This document shows, piece after piece, positions 956 through 62,635 of a stretch of 64,000 bases of DNA (the first letter of the stretch is position 1; each line of letters opens with the position of its first letter). The translations under genes were made by a program, and so were the position numbers. The DNA comes from Anthoceros angustus (lineage: Eukaryota > Plantae > Anthocerotophyta), in NCBI GenBank assembly GCA_010909165.1, contig MU008185.1, forward strand, positions 248,001-312,000, in the 5' to 3' direction. Under the pieces are notes generated by a model. The model was not told the DNA's origin and made no database searches. It saw only the letters and a list, made by a program, of their open reading frames with translations.

Positions 956-1045
956 AGTTTGCACAGTATTTAACAGTAATATGCTATGCCGAATTCTCAT
1001 GTGAAGTGTTTTTCCACACTAGTTGATAATAATCTTCAAACATGA

Positions 1046-25259: not shown

Positions 25260-25498
25260 GGCCTGGCCTACCAGTAAGCCTCCACGGACAACATCGCACC
25301 CGAAGCTTCGTCTGCCGTTTACAGGCTGCTACGACAGCAGAGATGTCCCTGGAATTTCCGTCACCTCCAGTTCCCGGGATGTCAGCTTCTGTTTCTAGAT
25401 GATGTTCATATACGCATCGGTTGAGCCCTAAAGGCGGAGGCCGAGTCCCAGGCGCTTGTGGGTTGTCGCTCCGGCTCCGAAATCTGTGTGGGTTGGAG

Positions 25499-35132: not shown

Positions 35133-36989
35133 GCCCCCAAGATTGGCGCAAAACGCAGCGCTTAAGTTGAAGCGCTCAAGTTGAAGGCAGTCGATACAAC
35201 GTCCTGCATCCTCCTTCTCCCCGTCCTTCCTTCACTTTGTCTGTCAGAACCTCTTCTCTGAAAATATTACAGCAACCATGCTCTTCAAACTTGACCTCGG
35301 AACTTGCAACATGCACGCGCTCGTCTCAATATTCGTTCCCGAGACGAGCTCGGCTGCACTCAAGAAGGCCTCTCGACTAGCGCTTTGTCAATCACAGCCA
35401 AGCCTCTCCGTCTGCCTGCGTCCACGCTGTGCTTTTGAGGATAACTGCCTCGCAGGAGGAGGAAGAGCGGACAGCGGGCAGGCTCGGGAGCGGGGACTCA
35501 GGGCAACCGGCGGGGCAGGAAGAGGCAGCTCACAGGTTCAAACTTCTCAACAACGTCCTAGATAAGCTCTTGCAACAGCAGCACAGAACAGCAAAGCCGA
35601 AGGCGTCTTGGCAACTTCTCAGGAGACAGGTTTTTGCCGAGTCCGCTTGCATCGGACGCGCGCTCTCGCAAGCAGGTGCAATATGCTGATGCAATGACGG
35701 GGACACAGAATCCATGGTGAATTGGCATCGGTGTTTAGGACACCATGATTGGAACTTCTCGTCACCTGGTTCGGCATGAATCCCCTGTGCTTTGTTTTTT
35801 TCTTCGTACACAGCGGGCAGCTCTTCCCGCGGGCTACGCAGCGACGCTCCTCAAAGTAGGAGTGCTTTTAGCATACTTAGAGGATTACTTCGCCTGCGGG
35901 AAGAGCGAGCTGCCACCGGGAAGCCGGGCGAGGACGTCTCCGGGCGGGCGGTTGGACAAGGGGGAGGGAGAGGCACCCGGCCGTGCAGGACATAGCCCGA
36001 GGATTTTGCTACCCTTCGCACTTACTTCTTCGTGAGGGTTAGGTAACTGGTATCTGCCGTCACCAGGATGCAGGATTGTCCAGACTTAACAGATTCGTGT
36101 GCCGTGTGATGCTGTCATTGGAGCAAGCGCTTTGATTCTCGCAGGTGCTCAGGCAGCCGTTCACTTTCCCACGAGCCGGCCTTGCGTAATGCTCTCCCGC
36201 AGAGCAGGAAGCTGGCTCCGTTTGTGTTCACACGGAGGAGGAGGAACAGAAATGCGTTTGTTTACATATGTAATTATGTACATATACTGGCACGGACATC
36301 GGAGTCTGATGGTCAGAGGCTGTCAGCTGGTTATGCTTATAAGCAGGGTTTATTCCTGAGGGACATACATCTGCGAGGTGGGCGCTGCCCTCCACGTATG
36401 TATGTACATATGGGAGAGCACAGGGCACACACATGTGGTGCATGACGTGGCATGGAATGTCCTTGGCTTACTCCTACAGTCCACCCCCCCTAAATGGGAC
36501 TGGTTCGGAGTGCCTTTAGAGGTCCCATTAAGGGAGGTGTCCCGATTATATTTTCCCTATTTAAAAATAATAAAAATATTATAAACTCTAAAAAATCAAA
36601 AAATACCCAAAAAAAGAAAATTTTAAATTTTGATTGATAGGTTTCACTAAAAATAAATTTTACCACTTCTTTATATAGTTGTTTGAAAGCTAGCGTATGG
36701 CATACCAAAGAGGACAGAGGGGACGGACATTTTTTTTCTGCCGCAAAACTTTTGGTGTCCGGTTTGGTGACCCGACCGAAATGGGGTAGCCCAAAGGGGA
36801 CGCACCAAAGCGGCCACTTCGCGGTCACCGGATTTCAGAAAGGGAACTTTAGGGTTTTTTCCGACTCACTCTATGTGTTTTCTCCCACGGAACAAAAATT
36901 TTTGTTCCGCAACGCTCCTATTTAGGGTCCGTAGGCCTCATAGGCAAGCCACATGCCCGCTTTTAGGGTTCATGTGCTAAGAGGGTGGA

Positions 36990-39440
36990 GCATGGTTTAG
37001 GCGGGGGTTTAGGCAACCGATTTGGCGGGCGGGCGGGCTGCGGTGGCGGCGAGGCGGCGAGGCAAGGCGGGAGGCGGAGGCGGGAGGCGGCGAGGCGGCG
37101 AGGCGGCGAGGCGGGCGGGCAGGCGGCGAGGCGGCGAGCGGGCGGCGGGGCGCGGCGCGCGGCGGGCGGGCAGGCGGCGGCGGCGAGCGGGCGGCGAGCC
37201 CACCGCCACGGACGGGGCAGGCGGCGGCGAGGCGGCGAGGCGGGGCGGGTTTTCGCGGACCGGCGAGAAGGGCGGGCGGGCTGCGGTGGCGGCGAGGGAC
37301 GGAGGCGGGAGGCGGGCGGCGGCGGCGGCGGCGAGGGACGGAGGCGGGCAGGCGGCGAGGCGGCGAGGGGCGAGGCGGGCGGGCGGCGGGGCGAGGGACG
37401 GACGAGGCGCGGCCTTCACTGGGTGACGGACGGCGGCCAACCGCAGTAAGGAGAGGCGGCGAGGCGGCGAGGCGGCGAGGCGGGGCAGGCGGCGAGGCGG
37501 CGAGGCGGCGAGGCGGCGAGGCAAGGCGGGAAGGCCGGGGAGGCGGAGGAGGAAGGCGGGCGGCGAGGGACGGAGGCGGGGCAAGGCGGGCGGCAGGCGG
37601 CGAGGCGCCACGGCAACGGAGGCGGGCGTGGCGAGCGGGCGGGCGGCGAGCGGGCGGCGAGGAGGCGCCACGGTAGCCCTCCCCATCCTTGCACCAAGCC
37701 GCAACTAACCTCGCCCCTCATTCGGGTCGCGCCACGGCAACGGAGGCGGGCAGGCGGCGGCGAGCCCACCGCCACGGACGGGCGGAGGCGGGCGGCGAGG
37801 CGGCGAGGGGCGGGTTTAGGCGGCGAGGCAAGGCGGGCAAGGCGGGCGGGCGGCGGCGAGGCAAGGCGGAGGAGGGGCTGCGGCGAGGCGGAGGCGGGCA
37901 GGCGGGCGGAGGCGGGAGGCGAGGCGGCGAGGAGGCGGCGAGCGGGCGGCGAGGGACGGACGAGGCGCGGCCTTCACTGGGTGACGGACGGCGGCGAGGC
38001 GGCCACCGCAGTAAGGAGAGGCGGCGAGGCGGCGAGGCGGCGAGGCGGGGCGAGGCGGCGAGGCGGCGAGGCGGCGAGGCGGGGAAGGCCGGGGAGGCGG
38101 AGGAAGGCGGGCAGGCGGCGAGGCGGGGCGCGGGCGGCGGCGAGGCGCCACGGGCAACGGAGGCGGCGAGCGGGCGGGCGGCGGGCGGAGGAGGAGGAGG
38201 CACGTGGGCCCTCCCCATCCTTGCACCAAGCCGCAACTAACCTCGCCCCTCATTCCTTCCCCGCCCATGGTGATGCCGAATTGTTTGATGCTCATTTCTT
38301 TGCAAACGGCCGACACGCAGATGGTACTGGTGCCACCGCAGTATTATTGTAGGCTTCCTGCGGTTGTGGGCGGGATGGTGCACCGCCCACCCTCTCCTCC
38401 TCACATGCCGCAGCCGCAGCGCGCCTCGAGCGGCGGGGCGCCACGCTGGCAGGCGCCCTCATTGTGGCGGCGGGGCGCGGCGAGCGGGCGGGCGGCGAGC
38501 GGGCGGCGAGGCGGGCGGCGGGCAGGCGGCGGGCGGGCTGCGGTGGCGGCGGGCGGAGAAGGGCGGGCTGCGTTGAGGCAAAACACGGGCGGAGGCGGAG
38601 GAGGGGCTGCGGTGGCGGCGAGGGGCGGAGGCGGGCAGGCGGGCGGGCGGGCGGGGCGAGGCGGGCGGGCTGCGGTGGCGGCGAGGAGGCGGGCCTTCAC
38701 TCAGGTGCGGGCGGGCAGGCGGCGAGGCGGCGGGCGGGCGGGCGGGCGGGGCGGGCGGGCGGGAGGCGGGAGGCGGGCGGGCAGGCGGCGAGGGGGCAGG
38801 CGGGCGGCGGCGAGGCGGGCAGGCGGGCGGGCGTGGCGAGCGGGCGGCGAGCGGCGGCGAGGCGGCGAGTGCAGTCCTCCCCATCCTTGCACCAAGCCGC
38901 AACTAACCTCGTCCTCATGGTGGGCATGAATCTGCGTGCAAGGAGAGGCGGGCAGGCGAGCCCACCGCCACTTGCATGTGTGGGGCGGCGGGCGGGGCGG
39001 CGAGGCGGCGAGGCGGCGGGCGGCGAGGCAAGGCGGGGCGGAGAAGGGCGGGGCGGCGGCGAGGCAAGGCGGAGGAGGGGCTGCGGCGAGGCGGAGGCGG
39101 GCAGGCGGGGCAAGGCGGCGAGGAGGCGGCGAGGCGGCGGCCCTACCGGGCCGAGGGACGGACGAGGCGCGGCCTTCACTGGGTGACGGACGGCGGCGAG
39201 GCGGCCACCGCAGTAAGGAGAGGCGGCGAGGCGGCGAGGCGGCGAGGCGGGGCGAGGCGGCGAGGCGGCGAGGCGGCGAGGCGGGGAAGGCCGGGGAGGC
39301 GGAGGAAGGCGGGCGGGCAGGCGGCGAGGCGGGCGGGCGGGGCGGCGGCGAGGCGCCACGGGCAACGGAGGCGGCGAGGCGGGCAGGCGGGGCGGCGAGG
39401 AGGCGGGGCGGCGAGGAGGCGGGCGGGCTGCGGTGGCCCC
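36990..39440. repeat. G-rich array of GGCGAGGC/GGCG units with duplicated unique cassettes
   Basis: An 8-mer ggcgaggc run interleaved with cassette ccccatccttgcaccaagccgcaactaacctcg (x4: ~37681, 38213, 38880, 39441) and gggacggacgaggcgcggccttcactgggtgacggac (x3). Confidence 0.9.
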
Positions 39441-39499
39441 TCCCCATCCTTGCACCAAGCCGCAACTAACCTCGCCCCTCATTCCTTCCCCGCCCATGG

Positions 39500-40070
39500 T
39501 GATGCCGAATTGTTTGATGCTCATTTCTTTGCAAACGGCCGACACGCAGATGGTACTGGTGCCACCGCAGTATTATTGTAGGCTTCTGCGGTTGTGGGCG
39601 GGATGGTGCACCGCCCACCCTCTCCTCCTCACATGCCGCAGCGCAGCCTGCAGCCCATCGTGCATGTGTGGGGCAGCGGAGGAGGGTTCCACGATCTCCT
39701 CCGAGCTCACCCGATCCTAATATGTGGAGTGAGTTGTTTCTGTGTCTTATGACCCCAAGAAGCCAATGCATCCTTTGTCCTACGAGGAGCTTGATGCGCT
39801 TTTGCAGCATGCGGAGGACCACAACGACCTCATCCGCCACATAGAGAACTACCCTTGACTTCAAGTTCTTTTCGAGCCGAGGAACGTGGTCGCAGTGTAT
39901 TTGACCGGACTCGACTTCCTATCAGAGTGCCTTCCGTGTCGGAAGCGCACTATTTCATGCATACCCATTTTGATGGGTGGCCATTGGGTCCTAACGATCA
40001 CCGTGAGGCCTCGCGTCCAAGCACCCGAGTCACCGGAGGACTTCAAGTCGTGGATGGCCAAGTTTCACCC
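39500..40070 (-). pseudogene. Ulp1/C48 SUMO-protease-like remnant
   Basis: Across frameshifts: DLKSSGDSGAW..TVI, YTATTFL, HWLLGVIRHRNNSLHILGS (cf. HWxLxVI...hLDS) and PQKP..N..CG (cf. PQQxNxxDCG). Confidence 0.55.
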
Positions 40071-40939
40071 GACGGCTTGACTCACGTGCACGGCCGCCTC
40101 GACGCTTATCGCCCCTCCCGGATTTCATCTCAACGCCTTCTACGAATTGGACGACGCCAACCATGTCTTGTGGGAGGAGATGAACGACCTCTACATCATC
40201 GAGGGCGGTGATCATGGGGTTAGATCGGGGGGTCATGTGCTTTAGGCACCGTGGCGAGGGTTTTGATAGGACTTGATGTACGAGGCCTTTACGGTTTAGA
40301 TTTGTAGGTGTCTTCGCACCCGCTTCCCACGCTTTGACTTGACCAAATTTTGACGCTTCCTCTTCGTGTATTCTCACCACTCGCCGATATCCGTGCCCAC
40401 GTTTTCAACTTGGCCTCGGTTCATGCTTGCCGCGCATCGTGTTCCCTCGTGCATTTTGGCCCGCTTCCATTCTCCTTGGCCTTGTCAACCCCGCCCCTTT
40501 CCATTCTCCTTGGCCTTGTCAACCCGGCTTTTGCCCCGGCTTTCCATGTCCACGCTTGCTTATTAATTGACAACCCATACAGGCTGCCTTCTTTCAGTGT
40601 GATTTGGGTCCGCGGAACTCGCTCTTCACAGAGGTTCGTCGCTTTGATAGCTGCTGCCTCCACTTCAAGGGGAATGCGGTTTCACACAAAGGTGATTCCG
40701 ACACGCGTCTCCACAATTTTCATGCACCATTGTCGGAAGGTCAGGACAGAACTTGCAGGGAATGTCTCTGCCCATGCCTTGCGGCTGGACCGCGCGAGAA
40801 ACCGGTTGCTGGACGCAGGAGGCTATTCCATGAGCCCTTGCGTCATGTGTCCACGCGGTGGCCCCTCCGGCCCTCACGTTTCTATCCTATCGGCGGTGAT
40901 GCCCTGTGCCCGTCGCCTTCCCTATCCATGTCTCATTGC

Positions 40940-41100
40940 CTCCCGCTTGCACCACATGCCCTAGTCGCCTGCCACCGCGACGCACCTCATATGAAAAGCG
41001 CTCAAGAGGTTAAGGGCTCTCCATGTCCACAGTGTGCAGTGCATTCCACTCCCACACCATCTCCTGCAGAGGATCCCCGTCGCCCGCAATACAAGCACAC
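40940..41100 (-). pseudogene. PHD/ePHD-like zinc finger remnant
   Basis: VCLYCGRR...GVECTAHC...(frameshift) AFHMRC...GMWCKR gives the C-x2-C, C-x3-C, H-x2-C, WC spacing. Confidence 0.5.
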
Positions 41101-41109
41101 TGCAACCTA

Positions 41110-43420
41110 TGCGATACATGTCCGGAGGTAATTTGTACACTTCAAGCCCGCCAGACGCCATGTCCTCGCCACTTGCATGTCCTACAAAACATTTGTCGTC
41201 ATCAAGAATCGCTGGTGTTCACATTCGAGACGGTCTTGGTGGCGTTCACTTACCCTCACAAGAATGCTATCGGAGGAAGCGGTGGCACCTCCGGTGCAAC
41301 ATTGCGGCGATCGTGGTCCGGGGACATAGTAGTCGTTGTCGCCCTCCTCGCCTACCCCATATGCGGCGGCCCTACCGGGCCGGCCCGCTCCTCCTCTGGA
41401 AGGCCTCCGCGGACGTGGCCAGCTATGTCATCGCCTCCGACCTCATTTTCCTCACCCTGTGCAAGTTCCACACCCGAACGAAAGTCGCCAGCTCTGTCCT
41501 CATGGTGGGCATGAATGCTGCGTGCAAGGAATGTATGTGCCAAGGGTTCGTGGTATCCAACTCACGGCTGTCCTGCAGCTCCAACATGTACCTCTTGTAC
41601 AGGAAGCCCCACTTCTCCTTGACGCCCTCCGGAAGTGCTCGATCGCCTCACACCCACGTATCCACCCACCAACCACGCCGTTATGTCTGGCACGGGCTCC
41701 GGCGTCCGGAAATTGCGCAGCCCGCATTCGGCAAGCAGAATGCGGCAAATCCCTTTCACATGACAACCAGTATCCACCTTACCTGATTGTGCACCGATGG
41801 CCCCCGAATGAAGTTCCTACCGTTCTCTCGCGGCCTCGCTGGTTCAGGTCCTCCTCAACTAGGTTGTGCTCCGCAGCGAAATCGGACCGAATCCGCTGCG
41901 GGTGCCCAAACCTACCGCCCGCCAGACGCCTTGTAGATTGTTCCTGCCCGCTTGTTGTCCTCCAGCACCGCCCACGTTATGTAGTGCGTTGCCCCATCTA
42001 TGGCCGCGTGCACCCTGAAGTGGAACATGTACATCTTGTCGACGCAAAGACAACACTCGCACCGTTAGCTTGCGTGCCTTGTGCCGCGCTATCGACTCGG
42101 CGACCACCATGTGCTCCAAGTTCCGCACACTCACAGTCCATGTGCCACATGTACATCGTGTGTATTGCACCGCGAACGCGCGCATGCGACCTCATTTCCA
42201 TGGCCTCCTACCGCATGGCTCGCAATCTTGCCGTCACACCGCCTCGGCCCCGCCTCCCTCCGCCCTCCGGAAGTGCTCGATCGCCTCCGCCTCGCACAAT
42301 CCTCACTCCCGCTCACACCGCCGCGTGATGGTCACATTTTGTAGGATGAGGTTGCGACGCCTTCTATTGTTCTCGGCGGACCCGCAGCCCTCTCCATCCG
42401 GCACCGTGCGGCCACCTCCTCAACGTCGCGGTGCACATCCCGGCTCGCTGCGAGCCCTTTCAATGTCCGCCCGCCTCCTCCTCCGCCTCTGCGATGTTCC
42501 TCAAAGTCTCCACTTGAAAGGGCCCGCCGACTGCCCTTCCCTCTCCCGCCTCCGCCCTCGCCCTCTGTTTGATGTCGAGGGCTGTGATCGCCTCCACCTC
42601 CGACACTTCGCCTCCCTTCCTCCATCGGATCCCCCCTCCCGTCTCCGCGCCTCGGCCCCTCCATCTCCCCTTGCAGCGACGCCCCATCTCCCCTCCGCCC
42701 GCCCCACTCCGCCATCCACCCGCGCCCGGCCTCACCAAGACCCTCCGCCTCCCGCCATCCTCTCATTGCCTGCCCCGCCCCTCCGCCTGCCTCCGCCTGG
42801 GCCTCGGCCCCGCCCTCCGCCTGCCCCTCCCTCCGGTTCCGCACACGGCCCCGCCTCCCCTTCCTCCCACCCGCGCGCCCACGGCCCCGCCCACCCCGCC
42901 CTCGCCCCGGATGGCGCCACGGCCCCGCCCCTCCGCCTTCCTCCTTCCCGCCCGCCCGCCTGCGCCCTCCGCCTCCCCTCCTTCCCGCCCGCCTCGCCCC
43001 ACTCCGCCTCCCTCCTCCGCCCGCCTCGGCCCCGCCCGCCGCCCCTCCATCGAACCCCATCGTCCGACTCTGCTCACGCCGCCATCCACCCGCGCCCCGC
43101 TATCACCCTCATCTCCTCCTTCCCCGCACACCGCCTCCTCCGCCCGCCTCCGCCATCAATCCGACCATCGCCAGGCGAACCCAACCCGCCCGTTCTCTGC
43201 GTCCCCATGATCGCCGCAGTGTTTCGCGACTGGGCCTATCCTCACCACGCCTGCCTCGCTGCGAGCCCTTTCAATGTCCGTCCGCCCTCCTCCGCCCCTC
43301 TGCGATGTTCCTCAAAGTCTCCACTTGAAAGGCGGCTGCCGGCCGTTCCCTTCCCTCTCCGCTCGCCCTCTGTTTGATGTCGAGGGCTGTGATCGTCTCC
43401 ACCTCACGCCCCGCTTTCCT
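41110..43420 (-). pseudogene. Intron-containing IS3/IS481-like (integrase-core, eukaryotic IS3EU-type) DDE transposase remnant
   Basis: Motifs in order across frameshifts and GT-AG introns: MWHMD; HAAIDGATHYITWAVLEDNKRAGTIY; FGHPQRIRSDFAAEH; FIRGPSVHNQ|AIEHF; ELQDSRELDTTNPWHIHSLHAAFMPTMRTELATFVRVWNLHRVR; YGVGEEG; GGLEVYK. Confidence 0.8.
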
Positions 43421-44110
43421 CCCCTTCCTCCATCGGATCCCCCCTCCCGTCCTCTCCGCGCCTCGGCCTCCATCTCCCCTTGCAGCCGCCCCATCTCCCC
43501 TCCGCCCGCCCGCCCCACTCCGCCTCGGCCTCCATCTCCCCTCCGCCTCCTCCGCCATCCTCTCATTGCCTGCCCCGCCCCTCCGCCTCTGCCTCGCCCG
43601 CCTGGGCCCTCGGCCCCGCCCTCCGCCCGTCCCTCCCTCCGGTTCCCTTGCAGCCCCCCTCCCCTTCCTCCCACCCGCGCCCGCCTGCCCACCCGCGCCC
43701 TCCGCCTCGCACCCGGATGGCGCTCACGGCCCCGCCCCTCGCCCCTTCCTCCTTCCGCTCCGCGCCCTCGCCCGCCCTCGCCCTCCTCCGCCCCTCCGCC
43801 CCGCGCCCTCGCCCTCTCCGCTCCCCTCCCTCCCTCCCTCCGCTCCGCGCCTCGGCCCCTCCGCCTCCCTCCGCCAGACGTCAGGCCCCGTTCACTTTGC
43901 CATCCACCCGCGCCCTCGTCATCACCCTCATCTCCCCTCCTTCCCCACCGTCTTAGCCCTCATCGCGCCCGCCCGCCTCCGCGCCATCAATCCGACCATC
44001 GCCAGGCGAACCCAACCCCGTTCTCTGCGTCCCCATGATCACTGCGGTGTTTGGCGTACTCGGGCCTATCCTCCCTCCCTCCGCCCTCGCCCTCTCGTTG
44101 CGTGGTCTCC
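42430..44110. repeat. C-rich (G-rich on - strand) array, ~820 bp higher-order duplication
   Basis: Cassettes ctgcgatgttcctcaaagtctccacttgaaag...gatgtcgagggctgtgatcg (~42489 and 43300) and ccatcaatccgaccatcgccaggcgaaccc (~43152 and 43984) sit in ccgcc/ccgccc runs. Confidence 0.88.
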
Positions 44111-44904
44111 CGCCGCTGGGATTCACTACTTGGAGCCGCGGTCGGGTTCAGCACCGGAGCACGCCACTTGTTCCATCTTCTGACAATGCGTGGTTTCCCG
44201 CATCTCCGGCCGTATGTCGCATAATTCCGCTTTCACGCCACCGACAGCTGTTTCATGAAATGAATGGCATGTGCCTTATTCACTTCGGCGAACGCTTTGG
44301 GTTGCTTCGCAACAGCCCCCCATGCCTAAGGACATTGATGCCTGCCTTGCTTCTTTCCACAAATCCACGATACAATGTTTCAGCAAATACCCTGACCCCA
44401 CCATTATTCCTACGCCTTTCCACCCCACAACTCTACGGTGATAGGCCACGCTGGTGTGTGCACGTTGAAGAGAAACACGAGACTCTTTGTAGCAAGCAGC
44501 CCCCCTACACTCGGGAATTTCGGGCTCCCATATACTGCGCAGTGCTCGAGGATGACGTGAGCAGCCTGCAATGCCTCCTCTTCGGCAAAGAAGCTCACAG
44601 CCTTGTCCACGTACAACACATACGCAGTCTGGTTGTCAAGGAGAAACGGCAACCGACATTGCTGCATCGGCGGCACCCCTCGTCGACTCGCGGCAATTGT
44701 CATTCGCCCCGCCGATCGCCGCATGCCATCGCCAACATGCCCATGTAGTCCCCGCCCGTCCACACATCTAAGCGGAACTGCGCGGCGGTCCATACACGAT
44801 GCACCGAGTGTCACATCCCCACTCCACCCGGCCACCCATCGCCTTTGCGGTCTCCGCATGCTCCTTTTCGCCGTAGGATGCATGGCGCCCCAGCTTCAGC
44901 AGCA

Positions 44905-45900
44905 TCGTGTCCACCACCGTCGCATGGTACACGTGGTCGCCGCGATCGAACCCACCCCACGCACACCGGTCGACCATCGTCACCAAGCACGATGACTTGC
45001 ATCCGCCTCACCCCACCACCATTGCGCACTCAACGCGCGGCCAACTCCATCGCCCGCATCCCCTTCTCCTTCCGTGTTGGACCCGCCCCAACCCACCAAT
45101 CCGCCGTGGAGGCTCCTTGTTCTTCGCAGCCTCCGCAATTCAAATGTGTCCATGTGCTGAAATAGATACCCTCGGTGCATGTGCCGCAACCCCGCCGTCA
45201 CAACTGCATTGCCCACCTCTCATCCGGAGCATCCTCCACTGCATGGTTCCATCCTGCACGCACCAAAACCACCCCACGAGTCCAAGCCCGCAGCCCTTGT
45301 CTCCTCCACCTCAAGACATGCGCCACCATGTCCCCGGTCCATCCGCTATGCGACGCGTTCGAATGTCGTCCGGCAAGCGTTCGAACACCGGCATGGACGG
45401 CGATGATGTCGACGCCTCACCACCGTCGCATGGTACACGTGGTCGCCGCGATCGAACCCACCCCACGTACACACGTCGACCATCGTCACCAAGCACGATG
45501 ACTTGCATCCGCCTCACCACACCACCATTGCTGCACTCTTCTGAACGCGGCGGCCAACTCCATCGCCTTCCGCATCCCCTTCTCCTTCCGCGTTGGACCC
45601 GCCCCAACCCACCAATCCGCCGTTGCCGGAGGCTCCTTGTTCTTCGCAGGCCTCCGCACTTCAAATGTGTCCATGTGCTGAAATTGATACCCTCGGTGCA
45701 TGTGCTGCAACCCCTGCTCGTCCACAATCTGCATTGCCCACCTCTCATCCGGAGCATCCTCCACTGCATGGTTCCATCCTGCACGCACTAAAACCACCCC
45801 ACGAGTCCAAGCCCGCAGCCCTTGTCTCCTCCACCGTCAAGACATGCGCCACCATGTCCCCGGTCCATCCGCTATGCGAGACGCGTTCGAATGTCGTCCG
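44905..45900. repeat. ~520 bp tandem duplication of coding-like sequence
   Basis: caccgtcgcatggtacacgtggtcgccgcgatcgaaccc at ~44915 and 45421; ccatgtgctgaaat at ~45150 and 45671. Confidence 0.88.
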
Positions 45901-45904
45901 GCAA

Positions 45905-48845
45905 GCGTTTCGCGAACACCGGGCATGGACGGCGATGATGTCGGCGTCCTCTACCCCGCCGTCACGGAACGCGCCGCCGCCATCGCCGCCCACGCCCGTG
46001 TCCTCGCTCGCTCCGCCCCAACGGATCCGCCGCTACCGCCTGTGGCCCCCCCCCGCAAAACAACCGCGCGAATTTCAACCCCAACCCCATGCTCACGCCC
46101 GCCTCACCACCGTCGCATGGTACACGTGGTCGCCGCGATCGAACCCACCCCACGACCGCGATTGAAGTTCTAATGTCCCTTCACCCCACGGTTTCGTGAC
46201 TCCACGCCCGGCCGCCGGAACGGTGGTCTTGCTCGCCGATGACCCGCCATGGCTCCACGATTTCCACAACTCGGATCGGGGAGAATGGAGTGTCCTCCAA
46301 CGCGCGCGCATGGACTCTTCCCCTTCCGCTTGAAATTGAATAGGGCGGGCATCGCGATTTTTCGGAGGCACCCGCAGAGGCGCGATGTCATTGCTCCTCC
46401 TGCCACACTTTAAGATACCTGCACGCGCCGCCACGTTGTCCTCGTCGACCGCAGCGGTGCATTAATTCGCCCCTCCTTTTGTGTGCACAAGCTACCTCAT
46501 TCGGCCCCACATACTCACAAGCGAACACCGCAGCCAATGAACACGCAACTTGCAGCTCATCAATAATTACCAATGGGATGGCATTTCGGAAACATGTAGT
46601 CCACAATCCCAACTGAACATCACACATCACACAACGACTTGGCCACCTCTCTACAACGGCTCGGCAATCTACGCTAGGCCATGCCATAAACCGTGTTGTG
46701 AGAAATGGCGGTCAGCACCCTCGCGCACATAGTGTCCTCGAAGTCATACAATGGAAGGAGCAATGTCCCGCCGCACGTCATGGCTGTGGGAGCTGTCCTC
46801 CGTCATCAATGGTACTTCAAACACCACAATTGGCGCCTCACCAAAGAACACGCGTCCGTAATGAAGGTGTATCCGCTCGTCGCAAAGACAACCTACGACC
46901 GTCGCGAACACCGGGCATGGACGGCGATGATGTCGGCGTCCTCTACCCCGTCGTCCACGCGAACGCTGCCCGCCGCCATCGCCGGCCCACGCCTCCGTGT
47001 CCTCGCTCGCTCCGCCCCAACGGATCCGCCGCTACCGCCTGTGGCCCCCGCCCCAACCCCAACCCCAACCCCAACCCCAACCCCAACCCCAACCCTGCTC
47101 ACGCCCGCCTCATGTGTCTTGCACCATCGACCGACCGCGATTGAAGTTCTAATGTCCCTTCACCCATGTGGTTTCGCCGTTGTCGCGCCCTCGGCGTCGT
47201 CGGAAGCAGTGGTCTTGCTCGATGACCCGCCATGGCTCCACGATTTCCACAACTCGTCGGAGAATGGAGTGTCCTCCAACGCATGGACTCTTCCCTTCCG
47301 CTTAAAATTGAATAGGCCGGGCATCGCGATTTTTCTGAGGCACCCGCAGAGGCGCGATGTGATTGCTCCTCCTGCCAGACATTAAGATACCTGCACGCGC
47401 CGCTGCGTTGTCCTCGTAAAGCGCAGCGGGTGCATTAATTCGCCTCTCCTTTTCTGTGCATAAGCGACCTGATTCGGCCCCACATACTCGCAACCGAACA
47501 CCGCAGACAATGAACACGGAACTCGTAGCTGATCAATAATCACAAATGGGATGGCATTTCAGAAACATGTAGTGCACACTCCCAACTGAACATCACACAT
47601 CACACACCGACTTGGATACCTCCCTACAATGGTTCGGCAACCTACGCTAGGCCATGCCATAAACCGTGTTGTGAGAAATGGCGGTCGCACCCTCGCGCAC
47701 ATAGTGTCCTCGAGTCATACAATGGAAGGAGCAATGTCCCCGCCGCACGTCATGGCTGTGGGAGCTGTCCTCCGTCATCAATGGTACTTCAAACACCACA
47801 ATTGGCGCCTCACCAAAGAACACGCGTCCGTAATGAAGGTGTATCCGCTCGTCGCAAAGACAACCTACGACCGTCGCGAACACCGGGCATGGACGGCGAT
47901 GATGTCGGCGTCCTCTACCCCGCCGTCACGGAACGCGCCGCCGCCATCGCCGCCCACGCCTCCGTGTCCCTCGCTCGCTCCGCCCCAACGGATCCGCCGC
48001 TGTGTGGCCCCATCCAAAACAACTGCCGCGCCCCAACCCCAACCCCACTGCTCACGCCCGCCTCACAGTCTCTTGCACAACACCCGACCGGACCGCGATT
48101 GAAGTTCTAATGTCCCTTCACCCATGTGGTTTCGCCGTTGTCGCGCCCTCGGCGTCGTCGGAAGCAGTGGTCTTGCTCGCCGATGACCCGCCATGGCTCC
48201 ACGATTTCCACAACTCGACCGTCTCGGAGAATGGAGTGTCCTCCAACGCGGCGCGCATGGACTCTTCCCTTCCGCTTGAAATTGAATAAGGCGGCATCGC
48301 GATTTTTCGGAGGCACCCGCAGAGGCGCTGGCGTCATTGCTCCTCCCGCCACACTTTAAGATTCCCGCACGCCGCCACGTTGTCCTTCTCGACCGCAGCG
48401 GTGCATTAATTCGCCTCCTTTTGTGTGCACAAGCTACCTCCTTCGGCCCCACATACTCACAAGCGAACACCGCAGCCAATGAACACGCAACTTGCAGCTC
48501 ATCAATAATTACCAATGGGATGGCATTTCGAAACATGTAGTCCACAATCCCAATCGAACATCACACATCACACAACGACTTGGCCACCTCTACAACGGCT
48601 CGGCAATCTACGCTAGGCCATGCCATAAACCGTGTTGTGAGAAATGGCGGTCAAGACCTCGCGCACATAGTGTCCTCGAGTCATACAATGGAAGGAGCAA
48701 TGTCCCCGCACGTCATGGCTGTGGGAGCTGTCCTCCGTCATCAATGGTACTTCAAACACCACAATTGGCGCCTCACCAAAGAACACGCGTCCGTAATGAA
48801 GGTGTATACTGGCCCGTCCGCAAAGACAACCTACGCACCGCGCGA
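45905..48845. repeat. Three tandem copies of a ~970 bp coding-like unit
   Basis: gattgaagttctaatgtcccttcaccc at 46160, 47139 and 48097; the tggtacttcaaacaccacaattggcgcctcacc block also occurs three times. Confidence 0.92.
47051..47092. repeat. (CCCCAA)7 / (TTGGGG)7 microsatellite
   Basis: Seven perfect units; the equivalent positions in the other two 970 bp copies have only 2-3. Confidence 0.95.
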
Positions 48846-48849
48846 ACAT

Positions 48850-51800: not shown

Positions 51801-52200
51801 GCGCCCGGCCTCTCCTCGCCGCCATGTTTTCACTTGGATTGGTGCGAGTCCACCAAAAAAATGGGTGTGCCTTGGTCACGGCCTCGCGATTTCCGTCAAG
51901 GGTGGAGATGGCGAGGGGCGGCGTGTCCGCGATGGCGAACCACCGGCCGATCTGCGAGGAAGATACGGGCGCCGTCTCCCGTCTTCGTCTTCGCATGACA
52001 AGAGCGGAGGTTCATTATTTCGTGGAGTCGTGCCCCAAACGCCTCAAACCCCGCTTAGGATTAAGAATGCCCGCCTTTTACTGACGGAAACACGACATTC
52101 ATTACATCGGAAAGACGGAGATGGGCGCGCCGTCTCCGGCATGCACCTCGTCGGATGGCCGCATTGTTTAAGGCGATGGTGGAGATGAGGACATGCTTAA
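48850..52200 (-). pseudogene. Unidentified, frameshifted coding remnants of the giant element
   Basis: Protein-like pieces (KACYPEVMGVLSLLKKASW; ELYDVERRLHRDAAWLLKLED; HVLQGALLYVWDPVSQMTPFMVRNYRE) with a probable GTGAGT donor near 49520. No family recognised. Confidence 0.4.
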
Positions 52201-53049
52201 ACGCGCCCTTCTAGAAGACGCGTTGTTTATGTTTGAAGTATTCGCGAGGGACCGGACAGGAGGCCGTGGACAAGAATGCGGCCCGCGCGACGCTTGGGGA
52301 AGACGCGGGTCGCATCTTCAGCAGACAGGGCCATGCCCGGTGGCGTGAGCAGTGTTCGCGTTGCCTACAAAACATCGGCCGCTCACGGAAGGGGATTCCG
52401 ACATGACCAAGGACGGCCGTGTTCGCTCGTAGCAATTTGCGGTTTATGTCAAATCACTTCCTCCATACGTTTGTTGAACCCAAGCATATATAGTGAATTT
52501 GTCCTGCATTTCGAACGAATGGATGGCGGAATAATGATGGATATTGAGTATGAGGTTTTTGTTCACACATGGCTAGTAGGAAAAGGTTTTGGGCCAAACT
52601 ATAAGGCCCAAAAAGGATGGAACATAATGCATAATGTTCAATTTTCAAAGGCCAAGGAAGATAGTGGTACATATAGCAGAGGACTTGACAACCTTGGCCT
52701 TTGGGATATTTGAAAGGAGGAAACATCATGCATGGTGTGTCCATGCCAAAGGCCAAGGAAGGCGAGAGGCATATACTACAAAGGACATGTCATCCTTGGC
52801 ATTTGGGATTTGTCAACGAAACATCATGCATGTTGTTTCAACCACCAAAGGCCAAGGAAGTTAGTGCTACATATACTACGGTAGGCTTGGTCTTCCCATA
52901 TGTGTGTGTCAATAGTTGGATGGCATGCGGATGTAAAGGTAAAACATCTTTAGGGTTTAGCGAAGGGGCGTTGGCGTGTTAGAGCATGTGCACATATGCA
53001 TGTAATCCGCATATATAGACATAAATATTACATATGTCTTGTTCCTTGG

Positions 53050-54290
53050 ACTTTGGCCTATAGTAGGATTGATAGGACATGCTAGCATCCTTGAAAGGTT
53101 GGTATATAATATATGGATATATATGTAGGAGAAAGTTGAAAACTAAGCATGTCACGCAGATGTGCTCGTTTTTCTTCCTCTATCCCTTGCAAAGCAAATT
53201 TTCCATGCATCGTCGATAAAGTTTCTTGGCATATGCCTAAGGATCTTTGTGCAGTAGCAATGGAAAAGCTTCTTATTTTTGTTTCCCTTTTCTATGTATC
53301 GCGAAAGGGTTTTCCTTTATATGCATCAATGAAAAGGGTCCTTGCACTTTGGTACAAGTGATAATGTCTTCGTCTTGGAAAAGAGGTATATTATGTTTCT
53401 ATATATGCGGGAAAAATACCGTATACACCGCATAATATGTGAGAAGTTGTGCTCTCTAGTTTTGCCTTCTTCTATCCTTCGTCGATGGCAATGTTTCCCA
53501 TGCATCATGAACAAAGTTCCTTGGGGCATGGGGAATGAACTTTGTCCATGATGCATGCGAAAACTGCATATGGTTTTTGCCCTTTTTTCGTGCGAAGCTT
53601 CAGGGAAAATGGTCCTTGGCCTTTGGTAGAAGTGAATGGTAATGTCTTCATCTTAGAACTAAGGTATATTATGTATGTCTATATATGCAAGAATAACACC
53701 GTTAACGTGCATGATAGGATAGAAGTTGTGTTGTGGGTTTTTGCCTTTTGTGCTTCGCGCATCGCTTTTTTTCCATGCATCCTGGACAGAGTTCCTTGGC
53801 CTATGGCGAAGGAACTGTTTCCAGGGTGCATTGAAAAGTTCCTTTCCATATGTTACCTTTTGTATGCTTCGTGCATCTTTCCCGACATGTGGGAAAAGGC
53901 TCCTTGGCCTTTGGCACATGTGACTATGAATGTATTCGCTGCTGAACCGAGGTATATCATGTATGTCTCTATATGTGCGAATAACAACGTAAACTCGCAT
54001 GACATGGGCGAAGTTTTGTTTTGGTTTTGTCCTTGTAATCTTCGCTGGCAATTCTTTGAATGCATCCTCCAAAACCTTGGCCCATGGGGATTGATTTTTC
54101 CCACGATGCGTGGAAATTTTCCTTATGTTTTTCCCGATGCTTGGCCTATGTGTATGCTTGGCCAATGGAATTGTCTCTACATGCATCATCGAAAAGGGTC
54201 CTTCGCCTATGGTACAAGACATTGTTCATGACCGGTCTTTGAAACTAGTTATATCATACATGGCTATATATGTAGGAATAACGTGGAAAA
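53050..54290. repeat. AT-richer degenerate ~285 bp tandem repeat (4-5 copies) in the element centre
   Basis: Recurring aggtatat(t/c)atgt...tatatg...aata block at ~53385, 53660 and 53950, with weaker copies near 53100 and 54250. Confidence 0.7.
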
Positions 54291-55499
54291 CAAACATGGT
54301 GCGGTTGGTATACGATTTTCCCTCCGCATCGCGGGCGTAAATCATTGGCCACATGGCGGATGACGTTTTGGATGATGCATGCCATTACGTTGTCCCGCAT
54401 GACCGCACCGCTCAAGGTTGTGGAGTCCGAGGCACAAACGCCAAGGAACGGCAGCAAACTCGCCCCGTCCGGCCGCGATCCACAACGGCGTGAACGTTGG
54501 GAAGCGATCCGAACTTGCCGTGATGGGCGGAACGAATCGGCCATACCGAGGGAAAGAGCAGGAAGCGGCCGAGGAAGAATGGCGAGGGGCGGCGGGGCGC
54601 GAGACAATGGAAGCGGACGACCGTGCATAGAACGGCGGGGCCGCGCTGCCATCCCGGTGTTGTAAGGCGATTGGTGTGGAGGTGATTATGCGTGCGATGG
54701 ACACCTCCCGCCTCTACACGGGTGTAGGTGTGCGGAACCGCGGTGGATGACGAACACGCCAAGTGTGATGGATGGGAGGGAAGGAGCCGAGTGCAGTGCG
54801 CGTGCTCTGGCGATGGCGGACGACAATGGGCAATCGCTTTTCCGCGCACATCCTTGGAATGGAAGCGGAGGAGTTTGCATGGTGGCTAGTGGAAACGCCG
54901 AGGAGGTGGTGCGGAAGGGAGGACTTACAGTGCAGCTTAACGATCACAACACACGAGCGCAGAAGGGATTGTCGGCGTCAGCGGTGTCTGTGGCCGCCGA
55001 GGGAGGTGAAGCTCCGGTGGGACAAAGGGAAAGGAATCGGGAGGACGAGTGGCCCAAGCGGGATGGCTGTGGAAGGGAAGGCGGAGGAGGAGGCGGGGAG
55101 TGGCATGGATGATGGGAGGGCACGCCTCCCCATGGCCATGGCGACGGCGGCATGGTGCGGAAGGGGTCTAGCAGACCATTTTGTTTGCTGTTGCTATTTT
55201 TGCTTGCTATGCGATCACGCTATGACCTGCTGCACATTAGTGGCAATGGTAGTAATACTGGCGGTGGCAGCCGCAGCTTTTGTTTGTGTGGACCGAGACG
55301 GGTGACCCGGTCGGCGCCATTATATGCAATTGGTAGGAAACCCCCAGAAAATGATTCTGAATAGTGATGTGTTTTAGGCGGTCCAGTATACGCTCCACAG
55401 CGAGTGTCATGTGAAGAGGAAAGGGGTTGGCGGTTAAGGACACGAACACAAGGAGGGCCAAAAGGGTTGACAAATCGCTAGTGCACATAAATGTCATGG

Positions 55500-58400
55500 T
55501 TGCCATGCGGGTTAGGCGGTCGCCCGCCTCCCCATGGAGGCGGGAGTAAAGCCGAGGTCGATCAAGGAGGGGCGATTGCCGCCGAGACCGAGGCCGAGGG
55601 GAGGGCATCGTGCCTCCCCATGGAGAAGGAGTCGGGCGGGGCGCCTCCCCATGGCCATGGCGATGGCGGGGCGCCTCCCCATGTCCATGGCGACGGAGGG
55701 CACGCCTCCCCATGGAGAGGCGGCGGTGGCGCCATCCCGCAAGGCCGGCGCAATTGGAAACAACGACGCAAAGGCGCGGCGGGCGGGCGGGAGTAAAGCC
55801 GAGGTCGATCAAGGAGGGGCGGGAGTGATGGAGAAGGAGACAAGCGCGGTGGCGGGAGGCGGGGAGGGGAGGGAGGCGGCGGCATGGTGCCCGCACTTGC
55901 CGGGCGGAGGGCACAGCCACTCTTCCTTGGCGGGAGGGCGGCGGAGGGCGGCAGGAGAAGGGGAAGCGAGGGGAGAGGCCTCCCCATGGCCATGGCGACG
56001 GCAGAGGGGCGGCGCGGCGGGCAGCAGGGGCGGGAGGCATCGTGCCTCCCCATGGAGAAGGAGGCGGAGGGGCGGCCTCCCCATGGTGGCGGCGGCAGCG
56101 GCGGGGCCCAGCAATGGCGCAGCGGGGAGGGGAGGCCGCCTCCCCATGTCCATGACGGAGGCGAGGGGCGAGCCGCCCGCCTCAAGGAAAGGGGCAGGTG
56201 GCCTCCCGATGGAGGCGCAGGCGGGGGCGGGGGCGGCAGCGGGGAGGGCACCGCCTCCCCATGGAGAAGGAGCGGGCGGGGCAGAGGCGCCTCCCGATGG
56301 AGGCGGCGGCAGGCGCCTCCCGGCGGCGGCGGGAGGGGAGGGGGCCTCGCCTCCCCATGGCCATGGAGACGGAGGCGGGAGGGCGAGCCGCCCGCCTCAA
56401 GGAGGGGGGCTGTGGCCTCCCGGCGATGGAGGCGCAGGGGAGGGCATCGTGCCTCCCCATGGCCATGGGCGGCAGAGGCGCCCGCCTCCCCATGGAGAAG
56501 GAGCGGGCAGAGGCGCCTCCCCGAACGATGGAGGCGGCAGGGGGAGACTGTGCCTCCCCATGGAGGCGGGCGGAGGGGAGGCGCCTCGCCTCCAAGGAAC
56601 GGTGGCCTCCCCATGGAGAGGCGGGCGGGGAGGGCGGCAGGAGGCGGGGAGGGGAGACTGCCTCCCCATGGAGAAGGGGCGGGCGGCAGTGCAGGCGCCT
56701 CGGAGATGGAGGCGGCAGTGGCCTCCCCATGGCCATGGCGCAGCGGGGAGGGCACTGCCTCCCCATGTCCATGGCGACGGAGGCGGGAGGCGAGCCGCCC
56801 GCCTGAGGAGGGGGGGCCAGGCCTCCCGGCGATGGAGGCGGCAGCGGCGGGTGCCCAGGCGGCAGTGCGGGGAGGGCCGCCTCCCCATGGAGAAGGAGTC
56901 GGGCGGGCAGAGGCGCCCCCGGCGATGGAGGCGGCGGCAGCGGGGGAGGCGCAGCGGGGAGGGGAGGCCGCCTCCCCATGGCCATGGAGGCGGGGGCGGA
57001 GGGCGAGCGCCGCCTCAAGGAAAGGGGCGGGGCGGTGGCCTCCCGGCGGCGCGGAGGCGGCGGTGGCGCGGGGAGGGCGAGGGGAGGGCGGCGCCTCCCC
57101 ATGGTGATGGACGGAGGCGGCGGGGAGGCGGGGCGCGGGGAGGCGAGGGGAGGCGGGAGGGGCGAGCCGCCCGCCTCGAAAGGCAGTGGCCTCCCGGCGA
57201 TGGAGGCCGCAGCGGGGAGGGCAGCCTCCCCATGTCCATGGCGAGGGGAGGAGGAGGCACGCCTCCCCATGGAGAAGGAGTCGGGCGGGCAGAGGCGCCT
57301 CAACGATGGAGGCGGCGGCAGTGCGGGGAGGGGAGACTGCCTCCCCATGGCGGCGGAGGCGGGCGGAGGGGAGGGCAAAGGCGCCCGCCTCAAGGAAAGG
57401 GGCGGGGGCGGCCTCCCGGCGATGGAGGCGGGCGGGCGGGCGGCGGCAGTGGGGAGGGGAGACTGCCTCCCCATGGAGAAGGGGCGGGGGGCAGAGGCGC
57501 CTCCCCGGAGATGGAGGCGGCGGGCGGCAGTGGCCTCCCAGCTGGCGCAGGGGAGGGCAGCCTCCCCATGTCCATGGCGACGGAGGCGGAGGCGAGCCGC
57601 CCGCCTGAGGAGGGGGGGCCAGGCCTCCCGGCGATGGAGGCGGCAGCGGCGGGTGCCCAGGCGTGGCGCGGGGAGGAGGAGCGGGGAGGCGCCTCCCCAT
57701 GGAGAAGAGTCGGGCGGGGCGGGGCGCCTCCCGGCGATGGGCGGCGGCAGGGGCCCAGGCGTGGCGGAGGCGCCTCCCCATGGCCATGGGCGGGGCGTGG
57801 AGGCGAGCCGCCTCCCCATGGAGAAGGGGCGGGGCATGGCCTCCCCTCGGCGATAGGCGGCGGTGGCGGCGGGGAACCCCAGGCGGGGCGGGGAGGCGAG
57901 CCGCCTCCCCATGGTGATGGACGGAGGCGGCGGGGAGGCGGGGCGCGGGGAGGAGGCGGAGGCGGGAGGGCGAGCCGCCCGCCTCGAAAGGCAGTGGCCT
58001 CCCCGGCGATGGAGGCCGCAGCGGGGAGGGCAGCCTCCCCATGTCCATGGCGAGGGGAGGGCACGCCTCCCCATGGAGAAGGAGTCGGGCGGGCAGAGGC
58101 GCCTCCCCGAACGATGGAGGCGGCGGCAGTGCGGGGAGGGGAGACTGCCTCCCCATGGCGACGGAGGCGGGGCGGAGGGGCGGGCAGAGGCGCCCGCCTC
58201 AAGGAAAGGGGCGGGCAGGCCTCCCGGCGATGGAGGCGGGGCGGGGCGGCAGGCGGAGGCGAGCACAAGGGGAGGAGGAGGCTGCCTCCCCATGGAGAAG
58301 GGGCGGGGGGCAGAGGCGCCTCCCCGGAGATGGAGGCGGCGGGCAGAGGCGCCTCCCAGCTGGCGCAGGGGAGGGCAGCCTCCCCATGTCCATGGCGACG

Positions 58401-58850
58401 GAGGCGGAGGCGAGTCGCCCGCCTGAGGAAAGGGGCAGTGGCCTCCCCGGCGGAGGCCGCAGCGGCTGGGTGCCCGGCGGCGGGGAGGGCACGCCTCCCC
58501 ATGGAGAAGGAGTCGGGCGGGCAGAGGCGCCCCCGGCGATGGAGGCGGCAGGCGGCGGGGCGTGGAGGCGCAGCGGGGAGGCCGCCTCCCCATGGCCATG
58601 GAGGCGGGGGCGTGGAGGCGAGCCGCCTCAAGGAAAGGGGCGGGGCGCCTCCCCGGCGATGGAGGCGGCGGTGGCGCGGGGAACCTGCAATGGGCGGGGA
58701 GGGCACCGCCTCCCCATGGTGATGGACGTGGAGGTGGGCCGGAGCGAGGAGCCACGGTGAGGAGACGTGGGAGGGCAGTTGCCTCCCCACGCGATGGCGG
58801 GGAGGCACGCCTCCCCATGGCGAGGGGAGAGGGAGCGGAGCATTGCGCAT
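55500..58850. repeat. G-rich satellite built on GCCTCCCCATGG
   Basis: Roughly 40 copies (by eye) of (g)cctccccatg(g) separated by variable purine-rich linkers such as agaaggagtcgggcggg, ccgcctcaaggaaagggg and cctcccggcgatggaggcg. Confidence 0.92.
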
Positions 58851-58889
58851 TGGAGGAGGAAGGCAACCCCGCTTTGGGGACGACGGGTC

Positions 58890-61223: not shown

Positions 61224-62635
61224 GTTTTTGCATAGGGGTCAAGCATGCGCCTTAGGAAGGCCGCAGGAGATAGGGTTGATGCTAGCCGCAATTTTGCGAT
61301 GTGAGCGTGGACATCCTTTTGATCAATGCAATGGCACTTCACCGTGAAATTTGGCTCTTTGCACGCAAAGATGAACATTCTTGGCGAGGTTGTTGCTGTA
61401 TGGGAGGAGGAGGTGGTGGGTCGCCATCCCTCTTCCTGCTTCGAGCCGCATCGTGCTTCTTCTTGTTTGAAAGAGGATCGTGGCTCTCATTGTTTCCAGA
61501 TCGTGGGTTCCTTAAGGAATACACGGTCCCAAAGTCCATAGTCAAGACGAGGAAGCGGCCGTGGGCTGTGCATGGTTCGCAAACCATGGCGCCGCCGCCG
61601 CCGCCGCCGTCATTACTGCGATACCCATGCCGGTGTGTAGGGTTTGACAATCAATGGAGCGCAGCAATGCCACGTTAGGGTTTGGTGGCCATTGATTCCT
61701 CAAGAAAACTTAATGGCACAAGGTAGTGCGGAAACATTCAAAACATAGTGTCCGTCTCTTTGTTTTCAAAAGGTGAAAGCACAAAATTTTCAAGGACACC
61801 CGCTTCGAGGACATTGTGTGTGTCCCTTTGGTGCTTGGCCGCTCTTGGTTAGGGCGCCAAAGCGCCATGTGGCCATGTGCTGTGAAAAAGAAACCGTACT
61901 GGAATGTACGGTATATTCCTCAAGATCCCCACGCCTTGCATGGGTTTCGCGAAAAAAAAAATGTCCCATCCCCTCTGTCCCCTTTGGTATGCCATACTAG
62001 CGCTCTCTCAAAGCAACATCAAAAAACCTCTACCTATCATAAAGGAAAAAGCTTAGCTTAAGAGTCTTCAATCACACCTAAAAGTCTATTGTTCTCTGAA
62101 ATAATGGATTCTTTTTCTTTCTTTTAATTGTTTTAGTAAAAATTAGAAATCCCATTTAGGAGGTGAAACTAACATGAATGTATGTTTCAAAAGGTCCCAA
62201 TTATCATTTAGGGAAAAGTCCCATTTATTACATTGTAAACTAAATGGAGTTGGATGGGAGGTCCCATTTAGAGAGAAATCCCATTTATAGAGTTCCCAAT
62301 TAGGGAGGGCCGACTGTAGTGAGGAAGCAATCTGAGAAAGCATGCGCAATCTTTGGAAGCAATATGAGAAAGCAACCTTTGGACTACATATGGAGACCCG
62401 GACGGAGTCTTGACACCGACGGTGACCTAGTTGAGCACTAAACAGTCACTTGCAGAAGATATGCATATGCTTGTTGCGGATCATCCCGACCCACATGCAG
62501 AACAACTTCGTAGGACATCTTTTCAGCATGATTGATGCCTTCAAGTTTGCAATTCCGAATCATGGCAGAAGGCTTGGCAGAATGCTTCACTTACTGCAAA
62601 GTGGGAAGAAAACGATATCGGTCTAAGTAATGACA

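What the first reader, a model, noticed from the sequence alone, without database searches (positions are those of the whole stretch)
36474..62319. ~26 kb giant TIR element with an IS3-like integrase and chromatin/SUMO-type cargo
Seen: 26 bp TIRs (22/26), a ~44 bp inverted subterminal block and repeated CCCATTTA motifs enclose 25.8 kb. Inside are two divergent decayed gene regions around an AT-rich centre: a leftward region (unknown ORFs, integrase core, PHD-like, Ulp1-like) and a rightward helical protein. The right end reads CACTA but the left does not; both ends share TACAG..CTGTA. No CACTA transposase and no TSD are visible. Established (from memory): eukaryotic IS3-like elements (IS3EU) are described with TAY..RTA ends, mainly outside land plants, and Ulp1/PHD cargo is known from Ginger, Zisupton and MULE elements. 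Inference: a giant, possibly undescribed plant DNA transposon family of IS3/IS481 ancestry.
Basis: partly seen in the sequence, partly recalled or inferred. Interest (0 to 1): 0.88.

Follow-up and report, generated by a model that had tools for sequence, protein, structure and literature searches.

The report
Oversized GingerRoot DNA transposon copy
This 26-kb stretch is a copy of an already described kind of plant jumping gene (GingerRoot/IS3EU), likely in a hornwort; two-fifths of its length is internal tandem repeats in likely error-rich sequence, so its giant size is likely overstated, and its extra genes remain unidentified.

Summary
The element is real and belongs to a described superfamily. 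Inverted ends at 36475 and 62318 read TA..TA (21 of 25 identical, unique in the window). Contigs of a public sample carry the same ends with other flanks, which fixes both termini and shows the 'CACTA' to be flank plus TA. The transposase (minus strand, about 42170-41426) has all three DDE residues, hits Pfam rva_4, is 46% identical by hand count to published Selaginella GingerRoot SL_GR-020, and shares an intron with an intact relative. So it is an IS3EU/GingerRoot transposon, known from land plants since 2019, not an undescribed family. The size (25.8 kb; known 3.9-12.9 kb) includes 10.5 kb of internal tandem duplications whose copies differ by about as many indels as substitutions, as uncorrected long reads do; about 15 kb is non-redundant. 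The defining 6-bp target duplication is absent. Ulp1 and PHD cargo found no support in Pfam, PDB, homologue searches or folds. The likely hornwort host would extend the reported range.

The parts
36475..36499 (+). left terminal inverted repeat, begins TACAG
   Evidence: a contig with another flank joins at 36475 and a single-copy contig runs from this flank into the TIR
36694..36737 (+). left subterminal block (37/44 identical to the right block, inverted)
37024..39647 (.). GC-rich low-complexity tandem region (units of about 560 and 1200 bp) that repeats the end of the leftward open frames
   Evidence: no hit; fold uninformative (pTM 0.24)
40668..40886 (-).
   Evidence: read; no Pfam family
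41426..41646 (-). transposase, last core exon: catalytic E (IEH) and the NPWH / WNLHR motifs; one frameshift near 41630
   Evidence: Pfam rva_4 E 7.6e-8, 8.1e-10
41647..41782 (-). predicted intron 2 (donor CAG|GTAAGG), absent from relative L001
41783..42040 (-). transposase, middle exon: AIDG motif, second catalytic D (RSD), GPSVHNQ; two frameshifts near 41920 and 41830
42041..42134 (-). predicted intron 1 (donor GAC T|GTGAG), same position and phase as in L001; acceptor AG not seen in the window
42135..42168 (-). transposase, exon end with the first catalytic D (WHMD); the N-terminal part lies further up and was not mapped
42444..44073 (.). GC-rich tandem duplication, two units of about 810 bp
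44912..45985 (.). tandem duplication, two units of about 506 bp, coding-like but unidentified
45910..48848 (.). tandem triplication, period 972 bp, coding-like but unidentified
48975..51230 (-). unidentified open frames (208, 170, 153 aa)
52500..54300 (.). AT-rich centre with short tandem repeats
55970..58840 (.). GC-rich low-complexity tandem region, period about 808 bp
61955..61998 (-). right subterminal block
62151..62302 (.). cluster of 7 CCCATTTA-like motifs (4 exact), likely transposase-binding sites (inferred)
62294..62318 (-). right terminal inverted repeat, ends CTGTA
   Evidence: contigs leave the window sequence behind 62318 and 62320 with other flanks

Best explanation
The stretch 36475-62318 is a copy of an IS3EU/GingerRoot DNA transposon, with TA..TA inverted ends and an intron-containing DDE transposase gene, likely in a hornwort genome and likely lengthened from about 15 kb by internal tandem duplications. 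By analogy with the family (inferred, not shown here) the transposase would bind the TIRs and the clustered CCCATTTA motifs, cut at the 3'-TA ends and join them to a new site with a 6-bp stagger. This copy has no 6-bp duplication, so its two ends likely no longer sit in their original target site: a recombinant or mis-joined product of two copies, or a copy with an adjacent deletion. Many of its frameshifts are likely long-read errors rather than decay. The other coding-like DNA is cargo of unknown function.
For: Termini fixed at TAC..GTA by contigs with other flanks. Pfam rva_4 is the only integrase family hit. All 10 homologues scanned of the 26 found are rva_4 proteins. D, D and E are present in family motifs. 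58 of 126 residues are identical to the published GingerRoot SL_GR-020 (hand count against the pieces). The pieces are 43-46% identical to intact relatives L001, P0034 and P0018 and form a clade with them and P0009 (99/96; 98/94). Intron 1 has the same position and phase as in L001. Both ends share a subterminal block, and summed contig depth at the ends is far above the single-copy flank (1153 and up to 7106 vs 13.6; not a copy number). Duplicated units differ by 2-8 substitutions and 3-7 indel events per 100 bp, and the unique flank shows 5 gaps but 1 substitution in about 700 bp against a contig. Host: the neighbouring PPR-DYW protein has the HAE active site and ends DRQ; PMC9478123 restricts that type to hornworts, lycophytes and ferns and names a DRH variant in hornworts.
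Against: No 6-bp duplication (TACTCC left, GTGAGG right), a defining trait of intact copies. The perfect-like TIR is 25 bp, against 100-150 bp reported for Selaginella GingerRoot. No published GingerRoot sequence was in my trees, and no IS3, IS481, Ginger or Polinton outgroup, so placement rests on Pfam, motifs and a hand count. The window's branch is long (0.83-1.4). One ungapped 258-bp block differs by 24 substitutions between two duplicate units, so some duplications may be real and old. A consensus of the duplicated units restored no clean open frame, so decay is not excluded. The hornwort assignment rests on one neighbouring gene.
Confidence: 0.85

Rival explanations
1. The 25.8-kb structure is a true, intact, mobile unit: a giant GingerRoot with several cargo genes, whose internal duplications are real and travel with it.
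For: Matching TIRs and subterminal blocks with no internal copy of either. One contig shows a go-back joint 38551 to 37781 and others in the AT-rich centre, so some tandem structure exists in short-read contigs. 9% ungapped divergence between two units.
Against: No target duplication. Indel-rich differences between units. No listed contig spans a junction of the 972-, 810- or 506-bp units (only 16 of about 600 records are shown). Known family members reach 12.9 kb.
Confidence: 0.2
2. The terminal TA is not part of the element but a TA target duplication (element CAG..CTG), which would make this copy intact and the family a TA-targeting variant with an IS3EU-type transposase.
For: It would explain the missing 6-bp duplication. 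Every other end seen in contigs also carries the TA, which fits both readings.
Against: Complete IS3EU families always end TA..TA and usually make 6-bp duplications (PMC10045372); 72 of 77 Selaginella GingerRoots end TA..TA. Integrase-type enzymes join a 3'-terminal A (own knowledge). In Selaginella 287 unpaired ends stand against 77 intact copies, so loss of the duplication is common.
Confidence: 0.07
3. A CACTA element, with the integrase gene as a separate nested insertion.
For: The right end reads CACTA, and the flanks show a short inverted likeness next to the TIRs that 24 of 3000 random pairs reach (noticed after the fact).
Against: Other copies end at 62318 with different flanks, so the CAC is flank. 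The left end lacks CACTA and is covered by a single-copy contig. No 3-bp duplication of that reading (ACT vs AGG). No CACTA transposase family in Pfam scans. The TA..TA ends match the transposase found.
Confidence: 0.02

Closest known systems
GingerRoot of Selaginella lepidophylla (PMC6839031; SL_GR-020 closest of the 6 SL_GR sequences by eye)
   Same: TA..TA termini, integrase-like DDE core with the same motifs (46% identity by hand count to SL_GR-020), multi-copy ends, seed-free land-plant host, extra internal DNA.
   Different: 25.8 kb (about 15 kb non-redundant) against 3.9-12.9 kb; 25-bp TIR plus a separate subterminal block against 100-150-bp TIRs; no 6-bp duplication at this copy; host likely a hornwort, a group not among the Bryopsida and Lycopodiopsida listed there.
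IS3EU superfamily (Repbase; PMC10045372), including fungal TET/JBP-carrying IS3EU (PMC12730594) and Styx of Zymoseptoria (PMC10853768)
   Same: One lineage with GingerRoot (99% bootstrap in PMC10045372); TAY..RTA ends; several cargo genes beside the transposase.
   Different: The 15 fungal IS3EU rows seen are 8.3-12.9 kb and Styx about 8 kb; their cargo (TET/JBP, alpha-kinase, GATA, CCHC) was not detected here; they make 6-bp duplications.
Locus L001 (metagenome contig) and proteins P0018, P0034, P0009
   Same: 43-46% identity (35% for P0009), one supported clade, same intron after WHMD in L001.
   Different: L001 lacks intron 2 and shows no likeness to the cargo region; its 3.5-kb contig shows no termini; host unknown.
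Prokaryotic IS3 and IS481
   Same: Remote kinship of the DDE core: three intact homologues score 31-48 bits on the IS481 model.
   Different: Far below the cut-offs (224 and 160 bits); the window pieces and L001 do not hit these models; the best plasmid match has E 0.1; the gene has introns.

Membership tests
IS3EU/GingerRoot | DDE transposase of the IS3EU/GingerRoot (Pfam rva_4) type with all three catalytic residues | tested here: met
   58/126 identical to SL_GR-020 by hand count
IS3EU/GingerRoot | Termini 5'-TA..TA-3' in inverted repeats | tested here: met
IS3EU/GingerRoot | 6-bp (6-8) target-site duplication | tested here: not met
   TACTCC vs GTGAGG. Tested on this one copy only, so it is not an 'intact' copy by the criteria of PMC6839031; the family's duplication could not be tested without the genome
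IS3EU/GingerRoot | Monophyly with published IS3EU/GingerRoot transposases against IS3, IS481, Ginger, Polinton | tested here: inconclusive
   supported clade with L001/P0018/P0034/P0009, but no published reference or outgroup in the tree
GingerRoot (Selaginella) | TIRs of 100-150 bp | tested here: not met
   25-bp core, patchy likeness over about 300 bp and a 44-bp subterminal block
GingerRoot (Selaginella) | Captured host gene fragments (22 of 77 copies; not obligatory) | not testable with these tools
   no host genome held; no match to the rest of the window
CACTA/EnSpm | CACTA at both ends, 3-bp duplication, Transposase_21-type gene | tested here: not met
Ginger1 (Ulp1/PHD cargo recalled, not from a call) | TG..CA ends, 4-bp duplication, HHCC/GPY motifs | tested here: not met
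   ends are TA..TA; core is rva_4, not rve; features as given in PMC6839031
Ulp1/Peptidase C48 or PHD cargo | Profile, sequence or fold match | tested here: inconclusive
   no hit; folds uninformative (87, 88); frameshifts lower the power of all these tests
Prokaryotic IS3 / IS481 | Score above the NCBIfam cut-off, no introns | tested here: not met

The most novel reading that the evidence does not exclude
A hornwort GingerRoot family that is the largest IS3EU/GingerRoot element known (15-26 kb) and carries several conserved cargo genes of its own with no known relatives, possibly chromatin or SUMO effectors, mobilised as one unit.
Probability: 0.25. Interest if true: 0.55.

Novelty: new member of a known kind. 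Interest (0 to 1): 0.3.

Why it matters
It would add hornworts to the few plant groups that host GingerRoot, the only plant DNA transposon reported to use an integrase-like transposase, and give a family with a conserved intron and large unidentified cargo. If the size and cargo hold up in accurate sequence, it would be a plant parallel to the fungal IS3EU elements that carry anti-silencing genes. As it stands it mainly shows how uncorrected long-read sequence inside repeats can look like a giant, decayed element.

Tried and rejected
Whole genome: none held, so no genome-wide copy, duplication or empty-site search. Cargo: Pfam on 150 open frames (143 of the 178 frames listed plus others from the right part) and on 24 read-through frames gave only rva_4 above cut-off; PDB search of the Ulp1-like frame gave 1 chance hit at E 3.8; homologue searches found 0 of 1522, 0 of 502 and 0 of 26 candidates (weak evidence, word-based); single-sequence folds were uninformative (pTM 0.24 and 0.27), so no fold search was run; the protein atlas did not answer. 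Consensus of duplicated units gave no clean frame, and differences between units showed no codon periodicity. Reads: no RNA holder listed. Run X1 leaves the right flank 62359-62663 and the stretch 41713-43683 without cover; a hole proves nothing. CACTA and TA-duplication readings: see rivals. In the first tree three rows (P0019, P0022, P0048) were cut at the wrong place by my script; they and the short P0025 were left out, with the same clade. Earlier findings: three look-ups, nothing. Literature: GingerRoot occurs in 13 papers; hornwort + Anthoceros + DNA transposon + Ginger gave 1 paper whose hit is an author name; IS3EU + Ulp1 gave 0; one search listed no hornwort GingerRoot report by title. 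Subscription papers and Repbase entries are not searched, so a hornwort family may already be on record.
Full report
Observation. The two ends are real. A pattern covering both matches only these two places with up to 3 mismatches. The first 400 bp align to the reverse complement of the last 450 bp with score 91, against at most 45.5 for 200 random windows. A 44-bp block is shared (37/44). Five of six exact CCCATTTA motifs in the window lie within 350 bp of the ends, although the motif is not in excess window-wide.

True termini. No whole genome is held, so I laid contigs of two public runs of one sample on the ends. At the left, a single-copy contig (depth 13.6) runs from 35800 into the TIR, and other contigs reach the TIR from a different flank that joins at 36475. 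At the right, contigs leave the window sequence behind 62318 (two) and 62320 (one, two bases fitting by chance) with other flanks. The element therefore reads TAC..GTA, and the CACTA is flank plus TA. Summed contig depth is 1153 over the left end and 3300-7100 over the right end, against mostly 0-120 inside. The tool warns that this is no copy number, but it suggests many short or related copies that share the ends. There is no target duplication: TACTCC on the left, GTGAGG on the right; no offset tested gave a convincing one.

The transposase. Pfam finds rva_4 at 41426-41647 on the minus strand (E 7.6e-8) and no other integrase family. Three-frame reading and ungapped mapping of homologues lay the core out in six pieces from 42168 to 41426, with the first D in WHMD, the second in RSD and the E in IEH. 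A library-wide search gave 26 proteins at E<=0.001; all 10 that I scanned are rva_4 proteins, the named ones from fungi and an insect. One scan of metagenome contigs gave an intact relative, L001 (1 of 22 candidate stretches). It has an intron at the same place and phase after WHMD (donor GAC T|GTGAG in both; 96 vs 94 nt to the next shared codons). The window has a second predicted intron after HNQ that L001 lacks. The pieces, joined with X at each break, are 46%, 45% and 43% identical to L001, P0034 and P0018 and group with them and P0009 (99/96; 98/94 after removing four rows).

Comparison with print. PMC6839031 (read: parts 1-5 of 7 of the text and supplementary file 1; its tables S1-S7 and figures are not held and could bear on TIR sequences and sizes) describes GingerRoot from Selaginella lepidophylla: TA..TA ends in 72 of 77 intact copies, 6-bp duplications, 100-150-bp TIRs, 3.9-12.9 kb, 287 unpaired ends, host gene fragments in 22 of 77, and relatives in mosses, lycophytes and animals. 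Its sequence SL_GR-020 matches the window pieces at 58 of 126 aligned residues by my hand count, including WHMD, IDGAT, GHP-R-R-D, EHNL, GPS-HNQ, IEH and NPWH-SLH-F-P. PMC10045372 (passages) joins IS3EU and GingerRoot in one lineage at 99% bootstrap, with TA..TA ends and usually 6-bp duplications. Fungal IS3EU with cargo are 8.3-12.9 kb in the 15 table rows I saw of PMC12730594 (passages and part of Table S1), and Styx is about 8 kb (PMC10853768, passages). PMC9804982 and bioRxiv 10.1101/2021.09.26.461848 (passages) treat GingerRoot as an established superfamily. IS3 and IS481 are remote: homologues score far below the model cut-offs and the best plasmid match has E 0.1.

Why it is so long. 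Self-comparison shows that 10,526 of 25,844 bp repeat an earlier part of the element directly, in at least seven separate tandem regions; 7.7 kb lies in windows of 72% GC or more. The non-redundant length is about 15 kb, close to the known upper range. Duplicated units differ by 2-8 substitutions and 3-7 indel events per 100 bp, mostly 1-2 bp. Such a ratio is typical of uncorrected long-read consensus and not of evolution (own knowledge). The unique flank too shows 5 gaps and 1 substitution in about 700 bp against a contig (the sample may be another individual). So the frameshifts need not mean decay. Against a purely technical origin: one 258-bp block differs by 24 substitutions without gaps, contigs show go-back joints in two of the tandem regions, and consensus of the units restored no clean frame.

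Cargo. The Ulp1-like, PHD-like and helical proteins found no support: no Pfam family, no PDB relative, no homologue, uninformative folds. The Cys/His spacing of the PHD candidate is C-x2-C-x7-H-x2-C-x3-C-x4-C-x3-H, not the C4HC3 order (consensus recalled). Frameshifts weaken all these tests, so the cargo is unidentified rather than disproved. No paper in the library holds both IS3EU and Ulp1.

Host. The PPR-DYW gene at 3369-6449 has the HAE active site and ends DRQ. PMC9478123 (passages) restricts this type to hornworts, lycophytes and ferns and names a DRH variant in hornworts. The run that holds the window has 98 million letters of contigs, which fits a small genome. A hornwort is the likely host (inference, about 75%). 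I found no report of GingerRoot in hornworts; PMC10952607 (passages) annotated hornwort transposons with an automatic pipeline only.

How it most likely works. Shown: ends, multi-copy use of those ends, DDE gene, introns by donor sites and a shared position. Inferred from the family: cut-and-paste transposition by an integrase-like enzyme that joins the 3'-TA ends to a target with a 6-bp stagger, guided by TIRs and subterminal motifs. Inferred for this copy: the ends no longer flank their original target (about 60% recombination or deletion, or a mis-join between copies in the assembly), and much of the excess length comes from local tandem duplication, real or assembled.

Verdict. A new member of a known superfamily, probably in a new host group; size and cargo claims need accurate sequence. 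Interest 0.3.

Noticed in passing
window 3369-6449 (-): Intact PPR-DYW gene of the KP type (HAE active site, ends DRQ), a candidate U-to-C organelle RNA-editing factor.
   Followed up: partly
window 30783-35133 (-): Gene for a U-box protein with leucine-rich-repeat-like segments and a likely helical N-terminal part; the element's left end lies about 1.3 kb upstream of its likely start.
   Followed up: partly
window 62640-63980: Tandem pair of a 667-bp unit that is high-copy in run X1 (depth about 3000); no Pfam family.
   Followed up: partly
window about 490-980 (+): Reverse transcriptase fragment of a LINE-like element (Pfam RVT_1, E 2e-19).
   Followed up: no
window about 7500-11700 (-): Multi-exon gene with HMGL-like and LeuA dimerisation domains, an isopropylmalate/citramalate synthase-type enzyme.
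   Followed up: no
window 24216-25328 (-): R3H and SUZ domain protein.
   Followed up: no
window 26888-27295 vs 5158-5548: Inverted partial copy (88-94%) of part of the PPR gene 21 kb away.
   Followed up: no
window 42258-42284 and 41620-41646: A 27-bp stretch that encodes the catalytic-E motif occurs twice within the transposase gene region; real duplication or consensus artefact unknown.
   Followed up: partly
window 36465-36474 and 62319-62329: The two flanks are a short imperfect inverted repeat of each other, reached by 24 of 3000 random pairs; chance or a palindromic target preference.
   Followed up: partly
L001:732-1899: Intact, intron-containing GingerRoot-type transposase gene in a metagenome contig, likely from plant DNA in the sample.
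   Followed up: partly
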